The translations under genes and the position numbers were made by a program. From Escherichia coli (GTDB taxonomy: Bacteria > Pseudomonadota > Gammaproteobacteria > Enterobacterales > Enterobacteriaceae): a stretch of 64,000 nucleotides of DNA. The notes beneath the pieces were generated by a model. The model made no database searches. It had not been told where the DNA came from and saw only the letters and a program-made list of their open reading frames with translations. How positions within the stretch are numbered: the first letter of the stretch is position 1; every line of letters begins with the position of its first letter. The DNA lies in assembly GCF_051903065.1 (NCBI RefSeq), contig NZ_CP178438.1; one strand, given 5' to 3'. This document shows positions 30,935 to 36,208 of the stretch, piece after piece.

Positions 30935-32518
30935 ATGGAATGGATTGCCGATCCGTCTATCTGGGCCGGGTTAATCACGCTGATTGTGATCGAACTGGTC
31001 CTCGGCATTGATAACCTAGTCTTTATTGCCATCCTCGCCGAAAAACTACCGCCGAAGCAGCGCGACCGCGCACGGGTTACCGGGCTGTTGCTGGCGATGT
31101 TAATGCGCCTGTTACTGCTGGCGTCAATCTCCTGGCTGGTCACCCTGACTCAACCGCTATTCAGCTTTCGCTCGTTTACCTTTAGCGCCCGCGACTTAAT
31201 CATGCTGTTTGGTGGTTTCTTCTTGTTGTTCAAAGCCACGATGGAGCTGAACGAACGGCTGGAAGGGAAAGACAGCAATAACCCCACGCAACGCAAAGGT
31301 GCGAAGTTCTGGGGCGTGGTGACACAAATTGTGGTACTGGACGCCATCTTCTCACTCGACTCGGTGATTACAGCCGTCGGGATGGTCGACCATTTACTGG
31401 TCATGATGGCCGCCGTGGTTATCGCTATCAGCCTGATGTTGATGGCCAGCAAGCCGTTAACGCAATTTGTTAACAGTCACCCGACCATCGTTATTCTCTG
31501 CTTAAGCTTCCTGTTGATGATTGGCTTTAGCCTGGTGGCGGAAGGTTTCGGCTTCGTCATTCCGAAAGGCTACCTGTACGCTGCCATTGGTTTCTCGGTG
31601 ATGATCGAGGCGCTCAATCAGTTGGCTATCTTTAACCGGCGACGTTTTCTTTCCGCTAACCAGACGCTGCGCCAGCGGACTACCGAAGCGGTAATGCGCC
31701 TGCTTAGCGGGCAAAAAGAAGATGCGGAACTGGACGCCGAAACCGCGTCCATGCTGGTGGATCATGGTAACCAGCAGATCTTTAATCCGCAGGAACGGCG
31801 GATGATTGAGCGGGTACTTAATCTTAACCAGCGTACCGTCAGCAGCATTATGACGTCGCGCCACGATATTGAGCATATCGATCTCAACGCGCCGGAAGAA
31901 GAAATCCGCCAGTTGCTGGAGCGAAATCAGCATACGCGGCTGGTGGTTACCGACGGTGATGACGCAGAAGATTTGCTCGGTGTTGTTCACGTTATCGACC
32001 TGCTACAACAGTCTCTGCGCGGCGAACCGCTCAACCTGCGGGTGTTGATTCGCCAGCCGCTGGTGTTCCCGGAAACCTTGCCGTTGTTACCTGCCCTGGA
32101 GCAGTTCCGTAATGCCCGCACGCACTTTGCTTTTGTGGTGGATGAGTTTGGCTCGGTGGAAGGGATTGTGACATTAAGTGACGTCACTGAAACCATTGCC
32201 GGTAACTTACCGAACGAAGTGGAAGAGATCGACGCCCGCCATGATATTCAGAAGAATGCGGACGGTTCCTGGACGGCGAATGGTCATATGCCGCTGGAAG
32301 ATCTGGTGCAATATGTGCCGCTGCCGCTGGATGAAAAACGTGAATATCACACCATTGCCGGGCTGTTGATGGAGTATTTGCAGCGTATTCCAAAACCTGG
32401 CGAAGAAGTTCAGGTAGGGGATTATTTGCTTAAAACGTTGCAGGTAGAAAGCCATCGCGTGCAGAAGGTGCAGATTATACCGCTGCGTAAGGATGGCGAG
32501 ATGGAGTACGAGGTGTGA
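30935..32518 (+). CDS. yegH: Inner-membrane protein YegH (TerC-family membrane domain plus CBS/CorC-type domains)
   Basis: Track ORF is 549 aa; likely start [13 protein letters not shown]... (527 aa). Confidence 0.88.
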
Positions 32519-32780
32519 TGGTATCGGTCATTTTACCCGATGCTGCGTAACGCCTTATAACTTCAGCAATGAAGCGTTGTCTGTGGTACATGGACATTAC
32601 AGCGGGGGGGTGGGTCCGGCTGTAAATCGCCGAATCGTTTCCTGTGGCCGGGGCAGCCCACATGGATGTGGGCTGAGGGCGCGTTTTACAGGGATAATGA
32701 GATGGACGCTCCAGATTTTACGGTATCAAAGTACCAGACTGGATCGTTGCAATACGTCCTGAAAAATTAGGAGCGTCCAC

Positions 32781-33806
32781 ATGAAAGTATCAACTCTTGG
32801 TATCGACCTGGCAAAGAACGTTTTTCAGCTTCATGGTGTCGATCATGAAGGCCATACTATTTTGCGTAAAAAGCTCACCCGGGCTAAGTTTGTTCAGTTT
32901 GTGATTCAACTGGAACCTTGTCTGATTGGCATGGAAGCCTGCTCATCCAGTCATTATTTTGCGCGATTATTCACCCGCTATGGTCATGAGGTAAAACTCA
33001 TACCTCCGCAGTATGTGAAGCCTTATGTGAAAACGAACAAGACGGATGCAGCAGATGCTGAAGCAATCTGCGAAGCGGTAACCCGTCCGAATATGCGTTT
33101 TGTTCAGATAAAAAACGAAGAGCAGCAGGCCGTTTTAGCGTTACACACTGAACGGGGAATACTTATCCGTGAGCGGATTGCCTGTGCCAATAGTTTAAGA
33201 GCCACACTTGCTGAGTTTGGTATTACGATTGCGGCCGGACAAAGCCATTTAACCCGTGAGCTGCCAGCCATTCTGGAGGATAGCGAAAATGGTTTATCTC
33301 CCTTTGTCAGAACCAGCATCTACAGACAGTCTAAACATATCCGGGAACTTGAAGAACAAGTTAAACAGGTAGAAGAAGCTCTGGCCTCCTGGTATAGAAC
33401 GCAGGAAGCCTGCCAGAGAATGGCCAAAATCCCGGGGGTTGGCATGCTAACGGCCACTTATGTGGTAGCAGCAGTGGGTAATGCCCGACAATTCAGTACC
33501 GCAAAGCAGTTCGCTTCATGGCTGGGGCTGACACCAAAGGAACATTCCAGCGGCGGGAAACAGCAACTGGGAGGGATCAGCAAACGTGGAGATGGATATT
33601 TCCGATACCTGCTGGTTCACGGCGCACGCGCACTTACCGCCTGGGTCAACCGAAACGGCGCGGTTGAGGAGAATTCCTGGCTTCAGGGACTCCTTGAGCG
33701 GAAGCACTACAATGTAGCTGTTGTCGCCATGGCGGCAAAAACAGCGAGGATCATGTGGTCAATGTTGTCACACAATACTGAATATCAACCTCGGCAGCTC
33801 GCCTGA
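32781..33806 (+). CDS. IS110-family transposase/recombinase (DEDD N-terminal domain plus Transposase_20 C-terminal domain)
   Basis: 341-aa ORF: N-terminal MKVSTLGIDLAKNVFQLHGVD and C-terminal IPGVGMLTA...GLTPKEHSSGGKQQLGGISKRGDGYFR motifs characteristic of IS110-family recombinases. Confidence 0.85.
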   Translation: MKVSTLGIDLAKNVFQLHGVDHEGHTILRKKLTRAKFVQFVIQLEPCLIGMEACSSSHYFARLFTRYGHEVKLIPPQYVKPYVKTNKTDAADAEAICEAVTRPNMRFVQIKNEEQQAVLALHTERGILIRERIACANSLRATLAEFGITIAAGQSHLTRELPAILEDSENGLSPFVRTSIYRQSKHIRELEEQVKQVEEALASWYRTQEACQRMAKIPGVGMLTATYVVAAVGNARQFSTAKQFASWLGLTPKEHSSGGKQQLGGISKRGDGYFRYLLVHGARALTAWVNRNGAVEENSWLQGLLERKHYNVAVVAMAAKTARIMWSMLSHNTEYQPRQLA

Positions 33807-33839
33807 CACAAGGTCAGTCAATCTGACGAGGTGCTGAAA

Positions 33840-34060
33840 AAAAGTTAACGTCCTGGTAGGTGCAGGTGACTTCAGAAGATGGCAAAACAGGTAAGACCGC
33901 AGGCAGGATACACCGAGAGGTAACAAGGGCAAGTTAGCCCGTAGAGGATGATTGGTACCTGCCTGGCGGATTTCATCATGGTTCGGGATAAAAATCCCAT
34001 CAGAAACCGGATATATGGCTGCACCTACCCGTTTTATTACATAACTGAAGAAAGCATTGC
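33840..34060 (+). ncRNA. Candidate IS110-family guide RNA (bridge/seek-type) in the 3-prime non-coding flank
   Basis: No ORF; long-range complementary 11-mers ggtaggtgcag (33855-33865) and ctgcacctacc (34021-34031) plus internal helices; inferred by analogy with IS1111-group elements. Speculative. Confidence 0.3.
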
Positions 34061-34297
34061 ATTCCGGGAGCGTCCATATATGTTACCTCGTGCCCGTACC
34101 CGATAGCCGCAAGGAATAAGATGAGGGAACCGCGCCAGCGGCGATTTACCGCCGGGAGCCCGGGTTGCCAGGGTGGTGGCGATTGAGCCACCCTGGCACG
34201 TTCACCGGCTTGAGCCTTCCATAGTAGCGAGGAACATCAAGTGAACGGAACAGCCTTCGATCTTACATATTCAGAATATAATGGTGCCGCCGCGAAC

Positions 34298-34336
34298 GCC
34301 TGATGCGACGCTTTACGCGTCTTATCAGGCCTACAG
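34298..34336. repeat. REP element
   Basis: gcctgatgcgacgctttacgcgtcttatcaggcctac just downstream of the asmA stop. Confidence 0.85.
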
Positions 34337-34354
34337 GACAGCTCACCAGGTAAC

Positions 34355-36208
34355 CTACATCTTCTCCAGCAACTTCTTCACATCTTTGCCATTGCGGGAA
34401 TCTTTATTCCGCTCGGCCCAGTCATTCAGGCGACGTTTCGCTTCGTCCTGTAGATGTTTGCGCAGCAGCTGGTCCACTTGCAGGCTGTAATTGAGTTGCT
34501 GCCAGTTGCCATAAACCCGCAGCGGTACTGGCGTTTCTTTGAGGAAATCAATCAGTTTACTTTCCCCGTTCCAGCCACCCACGACCCGAATATCAAACTG
34601 GGTGTCGCAGGTTTGATCTGCCAGATTCAACATGCCTTCCCCTGTCAACGCCAGCACAGGCGATTGACCTTGCATGTCGTTTAACGTCACGACGCCATCC
34701 TTCAACGTCAAATCGGTGGTAAAGCGGTCAAGACGCGTTACGTTATCGAAGTTTTCAGCGGCCTTCACATCACCACCATTACGTTCTACCGCTTGCTGAA
34801 TCATCTGCTGGAAGTTCATCCCTTGCATGCGCGTATCGGCCATTTCGACATGCGCCGTCCCCTGCCAGTTGTGGCGGAATGCGTCGGCATCTATGTCAGC
34901 ACCGGAGAAATCACCAGCCAGTGACATCTTTCCGGTCAACGAAATCGGATAGTTAAACGCCTTCAGAATGGTGCCAATCTCAACGTTTTCCAGCCGTGGC
35001 TGAAAGTTTATCCGCGGATTTATTGATGTCGCGTCCAGCGTGCCCGGCAGTGAAACCTGTCCACCGTTAAGTTTGCCCTGCAGTTGAGTAATTTCCAGCA
35101 AACCCGACTTGTTGGTCATTTGCGTGGCAACATCTGTAAAATTCATTCCGCGCCAGCGCACGTTACTGGCCTGCAACAAAATATCAGCCGTAAAGCCTTG
35201 CAGTCCCTGATAGGCCGGTTCATCAATACGCGAAGAAATAACCGGGCGCGGCAACGTTGATTGGCTCTGCCCCTGCTGCGCGGCACCGTTTTCACCATTC
35301 GCGGTTTCATTAAGCGGGATGAGGTTGTCAAGATTCAGTTGCGGGAATTGCAGTCTCAGCTGCCATTCCGGTTTCTCTGTCAGCGTGACCTGTGCTTGCC
35401 CGCTCAGCGTACTATCATTGGCGGTCAAACTAATTTGGTTAAATGAAAGGCGTTTATGTGACTCCTGCCACTGGGCCAGGAAACTCCCCTGCCCCTGAAT
35501 ACCTTGTTTTGGTAAATCGGCACCCTGCAACTGCCAGTTAATTTGTTCAATAGCCGCCGTTAAATCATGCGGATAATCAGAAGCATCTACCGTACCGTTA
35601 AGGGATATCGTGAGATCGCGCTGATCGCGATTAACCCGCCCGGAGAACTCAAATGAGCCACGATGTTGGGGATCTTGTTCCATTTGCAGGCGGATATTGC
35701 GGATTGTCACCTGCTCGTCATCTTCATGCTGGAACACCAGAACGCTGTCCGCCACCTTAAGACTGGATATATCAAACGACCATCCGCGATCGTCTGACAG
35801 ATCCGGCAAGGTATTGTCGCGCGGTGCAACCGGAGCGTCTTCACTGCGCACCGCTTCCGTCTGCGGCGTCAGTTGGATCACTGCCCCTTTTAGCATCACC
35901 TGCTTAACGCTCAGTTGATGACTCAGTAGTGGTAAAAGCGCCACGTCCAGACGCATGTTATCGGCGCGAACCAGTGGCTGGCTTGCGCCCTGGGCGGTGA
36001 GAGACATTCGCCCGGAGAGGATACTAAGCTGCGGCCAGACGTGCCAACGCAGTGGCCCGTCGAGCTGCAATTGATAACCGCTACGTGCAGCAACTTGCTT
36101 GACCATATAGTCGCGGAAATCATTCGGATTCACCAGCAACACTAACGCAGATAACCCGGCCACCAGCACGACCAGGAGTATCATCAGCGTCGTCAGAAAT
36201 CGTCTCAT
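34355..36208 (-). CDS. asmA: Outer-membrane assembly protein AsmA
   Basis: 617-aa ORF with N-terminal membrane anchor; position and length as in K-12. Confidence 0.9.
   Translation of the reverse strand: MRRFLTTLMILLVVLVAGLSALVLLVNPNDFRDYMVKQVAARSGYQLQLDGPLRWHVWPQLSILSGRMSLTAQGASQPLVRADNMRLDVALLPLLSHQLSVKQVMLKGAVIQLTPQTEAVRSEDAPVAPRDNTLPDLSDDRGWSFDISSLKVADSVLVFQHEDDEQVTIRNIRLQMEQDPQHRGSFEFSGRVNRDQRDLTISLNGTVDASDYPHDLTAAIEQINWQLQGADLPKQGIQGQGSFLAQWQESHKRLSFNQISLTANDSTLSGQAQVTLTEKPEWQLRLQFPQLNLDNLIPLNETANGENGAAQQGQSQSTLPRPVISSRIDEPAYQGLQGFTADILLQASNVRWRGMNFTDVATQMTNKSGLLEITQLQGKLNGGQVSLPGTLDATSINPRINFQPRLENVEIGTILKAFNYPISLTGKMSLAGDFSGADIDADAFRHNWQGTAHVEMADTRMQGMNFQQMIQQAVERNGGDVKAAENFDNVTRLDRFTTDLTLKDGVVTLNDMQGQSPVLALTGEGMLNLADQTCDTQFDIRVVGGWNGESKLIDFLKETPVPLRVYGNWQQLNYSLQVDQLLRKHLQDEAKRRLNDWAERNKDSRNGKDVKKLLEKM

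What the first reader, a model, noticed from the sequence alone, without database searches (positions are those of the whole stretch)
32519..34297. IS110-family (DEDD recombinase) element inserted between yegH and asmA
A 341-aa IS110-family recombinase gene with 260 bp of upstream and about 490 bp of downstream non-coding sequence sits in what I recall as a short yegH-asmA spacer in K-12. IS110-family elements lack classical terminal inverted repeats and (established knowledge) use an element-encoded RNA to choose their target and donor sites, with many members inserting at REP sequences; an intact REP lies at 34298-34336. Exact ends cannot be fixed from this window alone: the element may be about 1.4 kb (32690-34085) or fill the whole gap.
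Basis: partly seen in the sequence, partly recalled or inferred. Interest (0 to 1): 0.65.

Follow-up and report, generated by a model that had tools for sequence, protein, structure and literature searches.

The report
IS1111-type insertion sequence with bridge RNA
This is an intact 1,386-bp mobile element of the RNA-guided IS110/IS1111 kind, inserted in about 1% of E. coli genomes into a hairpin loop of a small conserved intergenic repeat between yegH and asmA; it is a clean example of a known kind, not a new kind.

Summary
A 341-aa IS110-family DEDD recombinase gene (32781-33806, +) lies between yegH and asmA.

An empty-site comparison fixes the element at 32695-34080 (1,386 bp). An AT dinucleotide is ambiguous at both junctions, and there is no other duplication.

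It belongs to the IS1111 group, not the IS621-like group:
- 11-bp subterminal inverted repeats with 7-bp left and 3-bp right extensions
- a short left (86 bp) and a long right (274 bp) non-coding region
- TTGCAT-16-TATAAT formed only when the ends are joined in a circle

The right non-coding region encodes a ~150-nt bridge/seek RNA (33881-34031). Its helices covary across relatives. Four loop segments match, in each relative, that element's own target flanks and own ends.

The target is not the nearby REP. It is the second AYGGAY-like hairpin loop (ACAGGGA|TGTTACCTC) of a ~214-bp repeat found about three times in nearly all E. coli. That repeat resembles the orphan Rfam motif TwoAYGGAY but scores below threshold.

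The element sits at this locus in 76 of 5,426 complete genomes, and somewhere in 179.

Verdict: a new member of a known kind. The mechanism is inferred from comparison, not tested. Interest is modest.

The parts
32695..34080 (+). Complete insertion sequence, 1,386 bp (IS1111 convention; equivalently 32696-34079 flanked by the shared AT core)
   Evidence: Empty-site alignment: window 32300-32695 = L001 301-697 and window 34080-34500 = L001 696-1116. Copies of identical length with identical ends occur at other loci.
32695..32701 (+). 7-bp left terminal extension TAATGAG
   Evidence: The xAATGxx extension is conserved in relatives. The 7-bp-left / 3-bp-right rule for the IS1111 family comes from PMC11187229.
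32702..32712 (+). Left subterminal inverted repeat ATGGACGCTCC
   Evidence: Perfect 11-bp inverted repeat with 34067-34077.
32781..33806 (+). tnp: 341-aa DEDD recombinase (D9, E52, D89, D92; GLTPKEHS-S257-G258 motif)
   Evidence: Alignment with IS621 places its D11/E60/D102/D105 and the SG loop on invariant columns.
33881..34031 (+). Bridge/seek RNA gene: a target-binding loop followed by a donor-binding loop
   Evidence: Covariance model R1 scores 116 bits here, the only match in the 64-kb window, though this sequence was in the training set. Helices covary in 23 distinct relatives. The model also finds the RNA in elements not used to build it.
33900..33965 (+). Target-binding loop: closing helix CAGGCAGG (33900-33907) / CCUGCCUG (33958-33965), inner hairpin GGGC (33927-33930) / GCCC (33937-33940)
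33917..33925 (+). Right-target guide GAGGUAACA, complementary to the top strand TGTTACCTC immediately right of the insertion point (34081-34089)
   Evidence: The same alignment position holds 5-11 nt runs complementary to each relative's own right flank (own mean 7.58 vs 4.16 for other elements' flanks; 0 of 20,000 permutations reach the own value). An independent element, L055, pairs 9 of 9.
33944..33950 (+). Left-target guide GAGGAUG, same sense as the left flank ..AGGGA|TG, so it would pair with the bottom strand
   Evidence: own mean 6.58 vs 4.04 for others; 0 of 20,000. At this locus the paired run is only 5 nt. It is 7 nt (one G-U) at the variant flank ACAAGGA|TG seen at the dusC site.
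33970..33976 (+). Right-donor guide AUUUCAU, complementary to left-end positions 3-9 (ATGAGAT, 32697-32703)
   Evidence: It covaries with the left-end sequence across relatives, for example ATGACAT with AUGUCAU and ATGGAAT with AUUCCAU (permutation p about 0.012).
34009..34018 (+). Left-donor guide GGAUAUAUGG, same sense as the right end plus the first base(s) of the left end (CCATATA|T..), so it reads the circle junction
   Evidence: ATA, ACA and GTA right-end extensions covary with AUA, ACA and GUA in the RNA in all 14 aligned elements. The bases after it follow each element's first left-end bases (0 of 20,000).
34057..34062 (+). -35 hexamer TTGCAT of the junction promoter. The -10 TATAAT is assembled from 34079-34080 plus 32695-32698 only in the circular form
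   Evidence: TTGCAT-16-TATAAT at the joined ends. TTG is invariant at this place in 14 relatives. No sense-strand promoter-like site was found in the integrated copy.
34067..34080 (+). Right subterminal inverted repeat GGAGCGTCCAT (34067-34077) plus the 3-bp extension ATA
32620..32694 (+). Left half of the interrupted target: TwoAYGGAY-like repeat with outer-stem arm AAAUCGCCG, first hairpin CAGCCCAC-AUGGAU-GUGGGCUG, and the 5' arm GGGCGCG of the second hairpin
   Evidence: The uninterrupted copy L001 621-764 matches Rfam RF01731 at 31.5 bits (gathering score 43; E 0.013). Host DNA, not part of the element.
34081..34148 (+). Right half of the interrupted target repeat: TGTTACCTC, the 3' arm CGTGCCC, and outer-stem arm CGGCGAUUU

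Best explanation
This is an intact, probably transposition-competent insertion sequence of the IS1111 group of the IS110 family. It moves by RNA-guided recombination.

Inferred cycle:
1. The element excises as a 1,386-bp circle.
2. Joining the right and left ends creates a sigma-70 promoter (TTGCAT-16-TATAAT).
3. That promoter transcribes tnp and, downstream of it, a ~150-nt bridge/seek RNA (33881-34031).
4. The RNA has two internal loops. The first (target-binding) loop carries GAGGUAACA, which pairs with the top strand right of the crossover (TGTTACCTC). It also carries GAGGAUG, which pairs with the bottom strand left of the crossover (AGGGA|TG).
5. [quoted passage not shown]
6. The DEDD/Ser recombinase (D9, E52, D89, D92, S257-G258) bound to this RNA exchanges strands at the shared A|T. 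This inserts the element, without duplication and in one orientation, into the loop of the second hairpin of a conserved ~214-bp intergenic repeat.

Shown here: the anatomy, the precise junctions, the acquired status, covariation of the RNA structure, and covariation of guides with targets and donors across relatives.

Inferred: circle formation, promoter activity, RNA expression and processing, the chemistry, and current activity of this copy.
For: - **Acquired, with precise junctions.** The element is present here in 76 of 5,426 genomes. Empty sites align to both flanks with a 2-bp overlap.
- **Recurrent specific insertion.** The same 1,386-bp element sits at the same position and orientation in the other copies of the repeat (dusC-yohP, lysO-aqpZ) and in Kluyvera.
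- **Family.** NF033542 scores 358 bits, with PF01548 and PF02371. The DEDD residues and SG motif are invariant in the alignment with IS621.
- **IS1111 architecture.** There is an 11-bp subterminal inverted repeat with 7/3-bp extensions, an 86-bp left NCR against a 274-bp right NCR, and a 341-aa Tnp. All match the rules in PMC11187229.
- **RNA structure.** Across 26 matches (23 distinct sequences), 93.4% of cells are paired against 73.3% in shuffles. 24 of 30 pairs show compensatory changes. Slid controls give 29-41%.
- **Guides.** Each element's own flanks or ends pair better than other elements' sites. Mean runs are 7.58 vs 4.16, 6.58 vs 4.04 and 7.5 vs 5.83 (0 of 20,000 permutations each), and 6.58 vs 5.89 (p about 0.012). 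The right-target guide lies 5' of the left-target guide, as reported for IS1111-family seekRNAs.
- **Independent element.** L055, not used for the model, pairs 9 of 9 at the predicted guide position.
- **Off-repeat insertion.** A plasmid copy sits outside the repeat in CCGGAA|TGTTACCTCACAG. It shares with the chromosomal site only the bases that match the guides.
- **Promoter.** The junction promoter is present, and no sense promoter was found in the integrated copy.
Against: - Nothing was measured: no circle, no RNA and no transposition.
- The single-sequence fold of 33881-34031 is not unusually stable (z = -1.3). Support for the structure rests on covariation counted on an alignment fitted to the model, which leans towards that structure.
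- The left-target guide pairs with only 5 nt at this particular locus.
- The donor-guide covariation for AUUUCAU is weaker (p about 0.012), because left ends vary little.
- Copy number is low (at most 4 places per genome). Many occurrences could be vertical inheritance of a few old insertions, so current activity is unproven.
Confidence: 0.88

Rival explanations
1. It is an IS110-group (IS621-like) element that targets REP sequences. The nearby REP at 34298-34336 would be its landing site, and the element would fill most of the spacer.
For: IS621 does insert into the REP of this same spacer in another strain (L003). A REP-like match lies at 34259-34331.
Against: The empty-site junctions lie at 32694/32695 and 34080/34081, 217 bp from the REP. 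The long non-coding region is 3' of tnp, not 5'. 11-bp subterminal repeats are present. Model R1 does not match IS621. The protein aligns to IS621 only distantly (E 1e-7, C-terminal domain only).
Confidence: 0.01
2. The recombinase gene is an ancestral or domesticated resident of the locus, for example a Piv-like invertase, rather than a mobile element.
For: Piv invertases are relatives of this protein family (PMC11187229). Large inversions bounded by copies of the element exist.
Against: It is present at this locus in only 76 of 5,426 genomes, and uninterrupted sites exist. Copies at >=99% identity occur at other loci, in other genera and on plasmids. Element ends, junction promoter and donor guides are complete.
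Confidence: 0.01
3. It is a structurally intact but no longer mobile copy. The occurrences would reflect a few old insertions spread by descent and by homologous recombination of flanking DNA.
For: Only three chromosomal sites are used. There are at most 4 places per genome. The left-target guide matches this site poorly, at 5 nt. No sense promoter was found in the integrated state.
Against: The ORF, both ends and all four guide segments are intact. Copies are 99.2-100% identical across unrelated strains, which argues for recent spread. Insertions in Kluyvera and at a non-homologous plasmid site show independent transposition events.
Confidence: 0.1
4. Target choice is made by the protein recognising the DNA hairpin or shape of the repeat, not by RNA guides. 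The complementarities would be coincidental.
For: The target lies in the loop of a strong inverted repeat (GGGCGCG / CGCGCCC). Other IS1111 members also sit in foldable sites such as REP and attC.
Against: Guide-flank matching holds across 12 relatives with unrelated targets, and no permutation reaches it. It also holds in an independent element. The plasmid insertion lies outside any such repeat but keeps the guide-matching bases. Experimental reprogramming of IS1111-family seekRNAs has been published (PMC11187229).
Confidence: 0.04

Closest known systems
ISEc11 (IS1111 family, E. coli; seekRNA shown experimentally, PMC11187229)
   Same: Both have a ~340-aa DEDD/S(T)G transposase. Both have subterminal inverted repeats with 7-bp left and 3-bp right extensions. 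Both have a long 3' non-coding region that encodes the guide RNA. In both, the top-strand match lies 5' of the bottom-strand match and the two overlap at the insertion point. Both form a promoter at the circle junction. The ~150-nt RNA predicted here matches the reported 154-nt long seekRNA in size. It also falls at a comparable distance from the right end, inside the ISEc11 fragment (bp 1127-1397 of 1443) that complements in trans.
   Different: The length is 1,386 bp against 1,443 bp. The target is ACAGGGA|TGTTACCTC in a hairpin loop of a repeat, against the linear GTGAAAATACTG. Protein identity to L039 is about 40%. Nothing has been tested experimentally for the present element.
ISPa11 (IS1111 family, Pseudomonas aeruginosa)
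   Same: It targets a specific position in a repeated, foldable extragenic element present in many copies. It has a 3' seekRNA/bridge RNA.
   Different: ISPa11 targets Pseudomonas REP sequences with hundreds of sites per genome. This element targets a ~3-copy TwoAYGGAY-like repeat, so it stays at 1-4 copies.
IS621 (IS110 group, E. coli; bridge RNA with solved structures 8WT6 and others)
   Same: Both use a DEDD plus serine composite active site. Both have a two-loop RNA in which the left guides read the bottom strand and the right guides read the top strand, for target and donor alike. Both share a core at the crossover and form a promoter at the circle junction.
   Different: In IS621 the RNA lies in the left end, with the left guide 5' of the right guide. 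Its subterminal repeats are only 2-3 bp, its core is CT and its target is the E. coli REP. Here the RNA lies in the right end with the guide order reversed, the subterminal repeats are 11 bp, and the shared junction is A|T. Sequence similarity is marginal (E 1e-7).

Membership tests
IS110 family (DEDD transposases, sensu ISfinder) | Transposase with an N-terminal DEDD RuvC-like domain and a C-terminal Transposase_20 domain | tested here: met
   NF033542 scores 358 bits against a cut-off of 140. PF01548 and PF02371 are on record for the identical protein.
IS110 family (DEDD transposases, sensu ISfinder) | Catalytic D, E, D, D and the serine of the G--P----SG loop are present | tested here: met
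   D9, E52, D89, D92 and G258 fall on invariant columns with IS621 D11, E60, D102, D105 and G242. S257 aligns to S241, which is S or T in the relatives.
IS110 family (DEDD transposases, sensu ISfinder) | Site- and orientation-specific insertion without a target-site duplication | tested here: met
   Junctions and orientation are identical at three E. coli loci, three Kluyvera loci and one plasmid site. Only the AT shared by donor and target is ambiguous.
IS1111 group | Subterminal inverted repeats of about 11-13 bp with terminal extensions of 7 bp (left) and 3 bp (right) | tested here: met
   ATGGACGCTCC / GGAGCGTCCAT is 11 bp and perfect. With the AT ambiguity resolved as A|T, the extensions are TAATGAG and ATA. 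The rule comes from PMC11187229.
IS1111 group | The longer non-coding region lies downstream of tnp, and the transposase is 330-350 aa with the GL-P----S(T)G motif | tested here: met
   The 3' NCR is 274 bp against a 5' NCR of 86 bp. The protein is 341 aa with GLTPKEHSSGG.
IS1111 group | A circular intermediate whose junction creates an active promoter | not testable with these tools
   In silico only: joining the ends gives TTGCAT-16-TATAAT, and TTG is conserved in 14 relatives.
Bridge RNA / seekRNA systems | A conserved structured RNA in the long non-coding end | tested here: met
   A covariance model built from 13 relatives finds 26 matches, including elements not used to build it. 24 of 30 pairs show compensatory changes, with 93.4% of cells paired against 29-41% when partners are slid.
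Bridge RNA / seekRNA systems | Loop segments complementary to both strands of the element's own target, varying with the target. In the IS1111 type the top-strand match lies 5' of the bottom-strand match | tested here: met
   (0 of 20,000 permutations for both target guides). The order matches PMC11187229.
Bridge RNA / seekRNA systems | A second loop complementary to the donor (the joined element ends) | tested here: met
   GGAU(A/G)(U/C)A covaries with the ATA, ACA and GTA right-end extensions and with the first left-end bases. AUUUCAU covaries with left-end positions 3-9.
Bridge RNA / seekRNA systems | The RNA is expressed, binds the recombinase and is required for transposition | not testable with these tools
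   No expression or biochemical data were available.
IS621-like, REP-targeting IS110 group | Long 5' non-coding end encoding the RNA, and insertion into REP at a CT core | tested here: not met
   The 5' NCR is only 86 bp, the insertion lies 217 bp from the REP, and the junction is A|T. R1 gives no match in IS621.
ISEc11 (as the same element) | 1,443 bp and target GTGAAAATACTG | tested here: not met
   The element is 1,386 bp and its target is ACAGGGA|TGTTACCTC.
Rfam TwoAYGGAY (RF01731), for the target repeat and not the element | A score at or above the gathering threshold of 43 bits, with two hairpins whose terminal loops read AYGGAY | tested here: inconclusive
   Three E. coli copies score 31.5, 30.9 and 30.6 bits (E 0.013 to 0.11). 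The first loop is AUGGAU, which fits. The second is AGGGAU or AAGGAU, which fits 5 of 6 positions. An outer stem is present.

The most novel reading that the evidence does not exclude
The landing pad may matter more than the element. The ~214-330-bp repeat may be a true member of the orphan TwoAYGGAY class. It may also be a discrete movable or invertible module. It occurs in opposite orientations between yohP and dusC in different strains, is half-deleted in K-12, and is followed by a conserved ribosome-binding site and start codon with non-conserved mini-ORFs. On this reading the IS1111-type element has evolved its guides to read the second AYGGAY loop. That would give the first functional handle on a motif unexplained since 2010. 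It would also give a natural marker for a recurrent ~1.3-1.5-Mb inversion across the replication terminus.
Probability: 0.2. Interest if true: 0.55.

Novelty: new member of a known kind. Interest (0 to 1): 0.33.

Why it matters
As an element it is ordinary. IS1111-type insertion sequences with 3' guide RNAs are established, and RefSeq already labels this protein an 'IS110 family RNA-guided transposase'.

The analysis adds four things:
- **Exact ends.** The element now has exact boundaries.
- **A four-guide RNA map.** It covers both the target loop and the donor loop, and is supported by natural covariation. IS1111-type donor recognition is less well described than that of IS621.
- **A previously unreported target.** The element inserts into a specific loop of a low-copy, TwoAYGGAY-like repeat conserved in nearly all E. 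coli. No report of this target turned up in the text and supplement searches run here.
- **Ready test sites.** K-12 has two intact empty sites, so it is a ready recipient for a transposition assay.

Copies of the element also bound a large inversion across the terminus in many strains, which matters for reading E. coli genome structure.

Tried and rejected
- **REP as target.** Rejected by the empty-site alignment.
- **K-12 spacer as the empty site.** Rejected. K-12 lacks window-equivalent 32542-34096. This is a 170-bp deletion of host sequence (the interval minus the 1,386-bp IS) between 8-bp direct repeats, and it removes the target.
- **Rfam family for the RNA.** There was no match over 31500-35500 at E <= 1 for the bridge RNA region. 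The only hits were a REP-like naRNA4 match and a chance miRNA match.
- **First k-mer search for guides.** It produced a misleading left-flank match, CGTTTTA at 34030. This was dropped once the alignment of relatives showed where the guides sit.
- **Single-sequence folding.** For the whole 3' NCR z = -2.6. For the 151-nt RNA z = -1.3, which is uninformative alone.
- **ISfinder name or prior description.** The cluster names are generic. There were no sequence matches in the supplements of PMC11187229 or PMC11208160. A text search for the locus genes and a sequence-string search found nothing relevant. ISfinder itself could not be queried.
- **Finding ISEc11 itself for calibration.** The search returned a different 1,432-bp relative (L055). 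It was used as an independent test instead.
- **Elements left out of the guide test.** Relatives with undefined ends (L020 with Ns in its flanks, L024, L034, L038 and L048) were left out. L028 was included but matches poorly at the right-target guide.
Full report
**Observation.** The window holds yegH (ending at 32518, + strand) and asmA (34355-36208, - strand). An intact 341-aa ORF lies between them at 32781-33806. The protein matches NCBIfam NF033542, 'IS110 family RNA-guided transposase', at 358 bits against a cut-off of 140. The identical protein carries PF01548 (DEDD_Tnp_IS110) and PF02371 (Transposase_20) in the precomputed tables. Against solved structures it is only distantly related to IS621 and ISCro4 (E about 1e-7, C-terminal domain only). 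A multiple alignment with IS621 and three closer relatives puts D9, E52, D89 and D92 on the invariant columns of IS621 D11, E60, D102 and D105. It also puts S257-G258 on the S241-G242 loop. So the ORF is real, intact and catalytically complete.

**Acquired or ancestral, and where it ends.** The 2.2-kb region 32300-34500 was searched against 5,426 complete E. coli genomes. It is found whole in 76 of them, once at 100% identity in strain 23CRST027. In the rest only the flanks match. One class of genomes has an 816-bp version of the region. In its representative L001, window 32300-32695 aligns to 301-697 and window 34080-34500 aligns to 696-1116. The insertion therefore adds exactly 1,386 bp. An AT dinucleotide is common to both junctions and there is no other duplication. 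The uninterrupted site reads GAGGGCGCGTTTTACAGGG-AT-GTTACCTCGCGCCC. K-12 is not the empty site. It lacks the window equivalent of 32542-34096, a deletion between 8-bp direct repeats (TACCCGAT) that removes the target. The element itself is 32695-34080.

**Which kind of element.** The ends carry a perfect 11-bp inverted repeat: ATGGACGCTCC at 32702-32712 and GGAGCGTCCAT at 34067-34077. If the ambiguous AT is split as A|T, the repeats sit 7 bp from the left end (TAATGAG) and 3 bp from the right end (ATA). The non-coding region is 86 bp upstream and 274 bp downstream of tnp. These are the features that define the IS1111 group as opposed to IS110 proper, as set out by Siddiquee et al. (PMC11187229) and Durrant et al. 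(PMC11208160):
- subterminal repeats of 11-13 bp
- 7/3-bp extensions
- a long 3' non-coding region
- a 330-350-aa transposase with the GL-P----S(T)G motif

Relatives were fetched from 100,044 species genomes. Those whose ends could be defined show the same ATGGAC... subterminal repeats, xAATGxx left extensions and ATA or ACA right extensions. Joining the ends as in a circular intermediate gives TTGCAT-16-TATAAT, with the -10 hexamer split across the junction. The TTG is invariant in 14 relatives. No sense-strand promoter-like site is found in the integrated copy.

**The RNA.** Aligning the last ~200 nt of the 3' non-coding region of 14 relatives (40-52% protein identity, apart from one near-identical Kluyvera copy at 96%; unrelated insertion sites) shows a conserved scaffold broken by four variable segments. 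I built a covariance model from 13 of these sequences with a hand-drawn structure of six helices. It finds 26 matches in the fetched loci, including elements not used to build it. It finds one match in the window, at 33881-34031 (116 bits). On the resulting alignment:
- 93.4% of cells form standard pairs, against 73.3% in shuffles and 29-41% when partners are slid by 1-3 columns
- 24 of 30 pairs show changes on both sides

The alignment is fitted to the model, so these counts lean towards the structure, but the margin is large. The single-sequence fold recovers the main helices but is not unusually stable.

**The guides.** The RNA has two internal loops, each closed by a helix and holding an inner hairpin.

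In the first loop:
- The 5' strand holds GAGGUAACA (33917-33925). This is the exact complement of TGTTACCTC, the nine bases right of the insertion point.
- The 3' strand holds GAGGAUG (33944-33950). This has the same sense as the left flank AGGGA|TG, so it would pair with the bottom strand.

In the second loop:
- AUUUCAU (33970-33976) is complementary to left-end positions 3-9 (ATGAGAT).
- GGAUAUAUGG (34009-34018) has the sense of the right end running into the left end (CCATATA|T...).

In the other elements the same alignment positions carry different sequences that match their own flanks and ends. For example, AACGACATG pairs with CAUGUCGUU, and GAAGC|GA matches GAAGCGA. The right-end extensions ATA, ACA and GTA are mirrored as AUA, ACA and GUA in the RNA in all 14 aligned elements.

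A permutation test on 12 elements compared the mean paired run with each element's own site against other elements' sites:

| Guide | Own site | Other sites | Permutations reaching own value |
|---|---|---|---|
| Right-target | 7.58 | 4.16 | 0 of 20,000 |
| Left-target | 6.58 | 4.04 | 0 of 20,000 |
| Left-donor | 7.5 | 5.83 | 0 of 20,000 |
| Right-donor | 6.58 | 5.89 | p about 0.012 |

A further E. coli relative fetched afterwards (L055, 1,432 bp) has a 9-of-9 match at the predicted right-target position. The order, with the top-strand match 5' of the bottom-strand match and the two overlapping at the crossover, is the one reported for IS1111-family seekRNAs. It is the reverse of IS621. In IS621 the left guides also read the bottom strand and the right guides the top strand, but the left guide comes first.

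**The target.** Every chromosomal copy examined sits at the same position and orientation in copies of one repeat. The sites are yegH-asmA (this window), dusC-yohP and lysO(ybjE)-aqpZ, plus three sites in Kluyvera. A 214-bp version of the repeat is found in 5,404 of 5,426 E. coli genomes, with a median of three places per genome. K-12 has two intact empty sites. The uninterrupted repeat matches the Rfam motif TwoAYGGAY (RF01731) at 31.5, 30.9 and 30.6 bits in three copies. These scores are below the gathering score of 43. The first hairpin loop is AUGGAU. The second, AGGGAU, is where the element inserts (GGGA|UG). TwoAYGGAY is an orphan motif with no assigned function. I therefore call the repeat TwoAYGGAY-like and do not claim membership. 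The REP at 34298-34336 plays no part.

One plasmid copy, with an internal tnp deletion, lies outside any such repeat in CCGGAA|TGTTACCTCACAG. It shares with the chromosomal site only the bases that match the guides. This argues that the guides, not the hairpin, define the site. No other near-match to the 14-nt site exists in the window.

**Distribution.** The element occurs in 179 of 5,426 genomes at 339 places, at most four per genome, and almost always at >=99% identity. The 90%-identity protein cluster also has members from Enterobacter, Klebsiella and Kluyvera, and a 96%-identical partial copy was found in Citrobacter. The next relatives are only about 52% identical.

**Mechanism, and what is shown versus inferred.** Shown by sequence and comparison:
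- precise, duplication-free, oriented insertion
- the IS1111 architecture
- intact catalytic residues
- a conserved structured RNA whose four loop segments track each element's own target and own ends
- a promoter that exists only when the ends are joined

Inferred from the published IS621 and ISEc11 work:
- the element excises as a circle
- the junction promoter drives tnp and the RNA
- the recombinase-RNA complex pairs one loop with the target and the other with the circle junction
- strands are exchanged at the shared A|T through a phosphoserine intermediate

Whether this copy is active now is unknown. At this locus the left-target guide pairs with only 5 nt, against 7 at the variant flank found at the dusC site.

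**Comparison and novelty.** The element works like ISEc11 and ISPa11 and passes every sequence-level membership test for the IS1111 group. It is not ISEc11, which differs in length and target (1,443 bp; GTGAAAATACTG). Two ISEc11-like elements held here (339-aa transposases; L039 and L055) serve as comparators, and L039 is about 40% identical in protein. It is not IS621-like. I could not find a name or prior description, but ISfinder could not be queried. I rate it a new member of a known kind. The four-guide map and the TwoAYGGAY-like target are the new information. Interest is modest.

Noticed in passing
window 32620-32694 + 34081-34148 (interrupted); intact copies L001 621-764, L050 2037-2176 (+), L051 730-881 (-): A ~214-bp intergenic repeat occurs about three times in nearly all E. 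coli (5,404 of 5,426 genomes). It matches the orphan Rfam motif TwoAYGGAY at 30.6-31.5 bits, below the gathering score of 43. It has an outer stem AAAUCGCCG / CGGCGAUUU and two hairpins with AUGGAU and AGGGAU loops. Its function is unknown.
   Followed up: partly
window 32534-32541 and 34097-34104; K-12 loci L002 and L015: K-12's yegH-asmA spacer lacks the 5' half of this repeat, including the insertion target. The missing segment is bounded by 8-bp direct repeats (TACCCGAT). This suggests a microhomology deletion, or less likely an insertion with a target duplication.
   Followed up: partly
L003 (NZ_CP020933) 771-2047; hits H26-H29: The yegH-asmA spacer is a hot spot. One strain has IS621 inserted in the REP next to asmA. 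Four of the 30 genomes listed at even steps down the ranking carry a RelE/ParE toxin gene plus an HTH gene in place of most of the spacer.
   Followed up: no
L005, L007, L010, L011 (dusC-IS-aqpZ); L006, L008, L012 (lysO-IS-yohP): Many genomes have chimeric flanks around copies of this element. In one assembly, L007 and L008 lie on the same contig, 1.54 Mb apart and in opposite orientation. This implies an inversion spanning the replication terminus between two inverted copies. Whether it arose by homologous or element-mediated recombination is unknown.
   Followed up: partly
L009, L005, L007-L011 left flank; L054 1210-1235: Next to the element at the dusC site, the left flank reads TCTTACAAGGA. 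This differs at two bases from the usual TTTTACAGGGA and pairs better with the left-target guide. No exact uninterrupted copy of this variant was found in 5,426 genomes. The closest, in SK1144, has an extra T-to-C change at the crossover base. A lineage polymorphism is the simplest explanation.
   Followed up: partly
L054 (NZ_AP018784, strain SK1144) 1148-1419, against L051 607-877: In SK1144 the ~270-bp repeat between yohP and dusC lies in the opposite orientation to K-12 (89% identity), and the short flanking spacers are unrelated. Recombination between the repeat copies cannot produce this. The repeat may therefore be a discrete movable or invertible module.
   Followed up: partly
L050, L051, L054, L001: about 160-175 nt downstream of the insertion point within each repeat copy: Each repeat copy is followed by a conserved AGGAGCGCAACA(A/G)G-ATG (GAGGAACATCAA-GTG at yegH-asmA). 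This is a ribosome-binding site and start codon. It opens mini-ORFs of 3 to 27 codons whose sequences are not conserved.
   Followed up: partly
L052 (plasmid NZ_CP076707) 601-1919; L053 (plasmid pFII-FIB, NZ_MN783745) 2420-2849: One IncFIB plasmid carries a tnp-deleted copy inserted outside the repeat at CCGGAA|TGTTACCTC. Several F plasmids carry a diverged remnant (88-93% identity) made of a short internal tnp piece joined to the tnp 3' end and the whole bridge-RNA region. Model R1 still scores it at 99 bits.
   Followed up: partly
window 32702-32707 and 34072-34077: The core of the subterminal repeat, ATGGAC, itself fits the AYGGAY consensus of the target's hairpin loops. This is probably coincidence and was not tested.
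   Followed up: no
window 34259-34331 (+): A REP-type palindrome (GCCTGATGCGACGC...GCGTCTTATCAGGC) gives a sub-threshold match to Rfam naRNA4 at 33 bits against a gathering score of 59.5. It is an ordinary REP, intact and unrelated to the insertion.
   Followed up: yes
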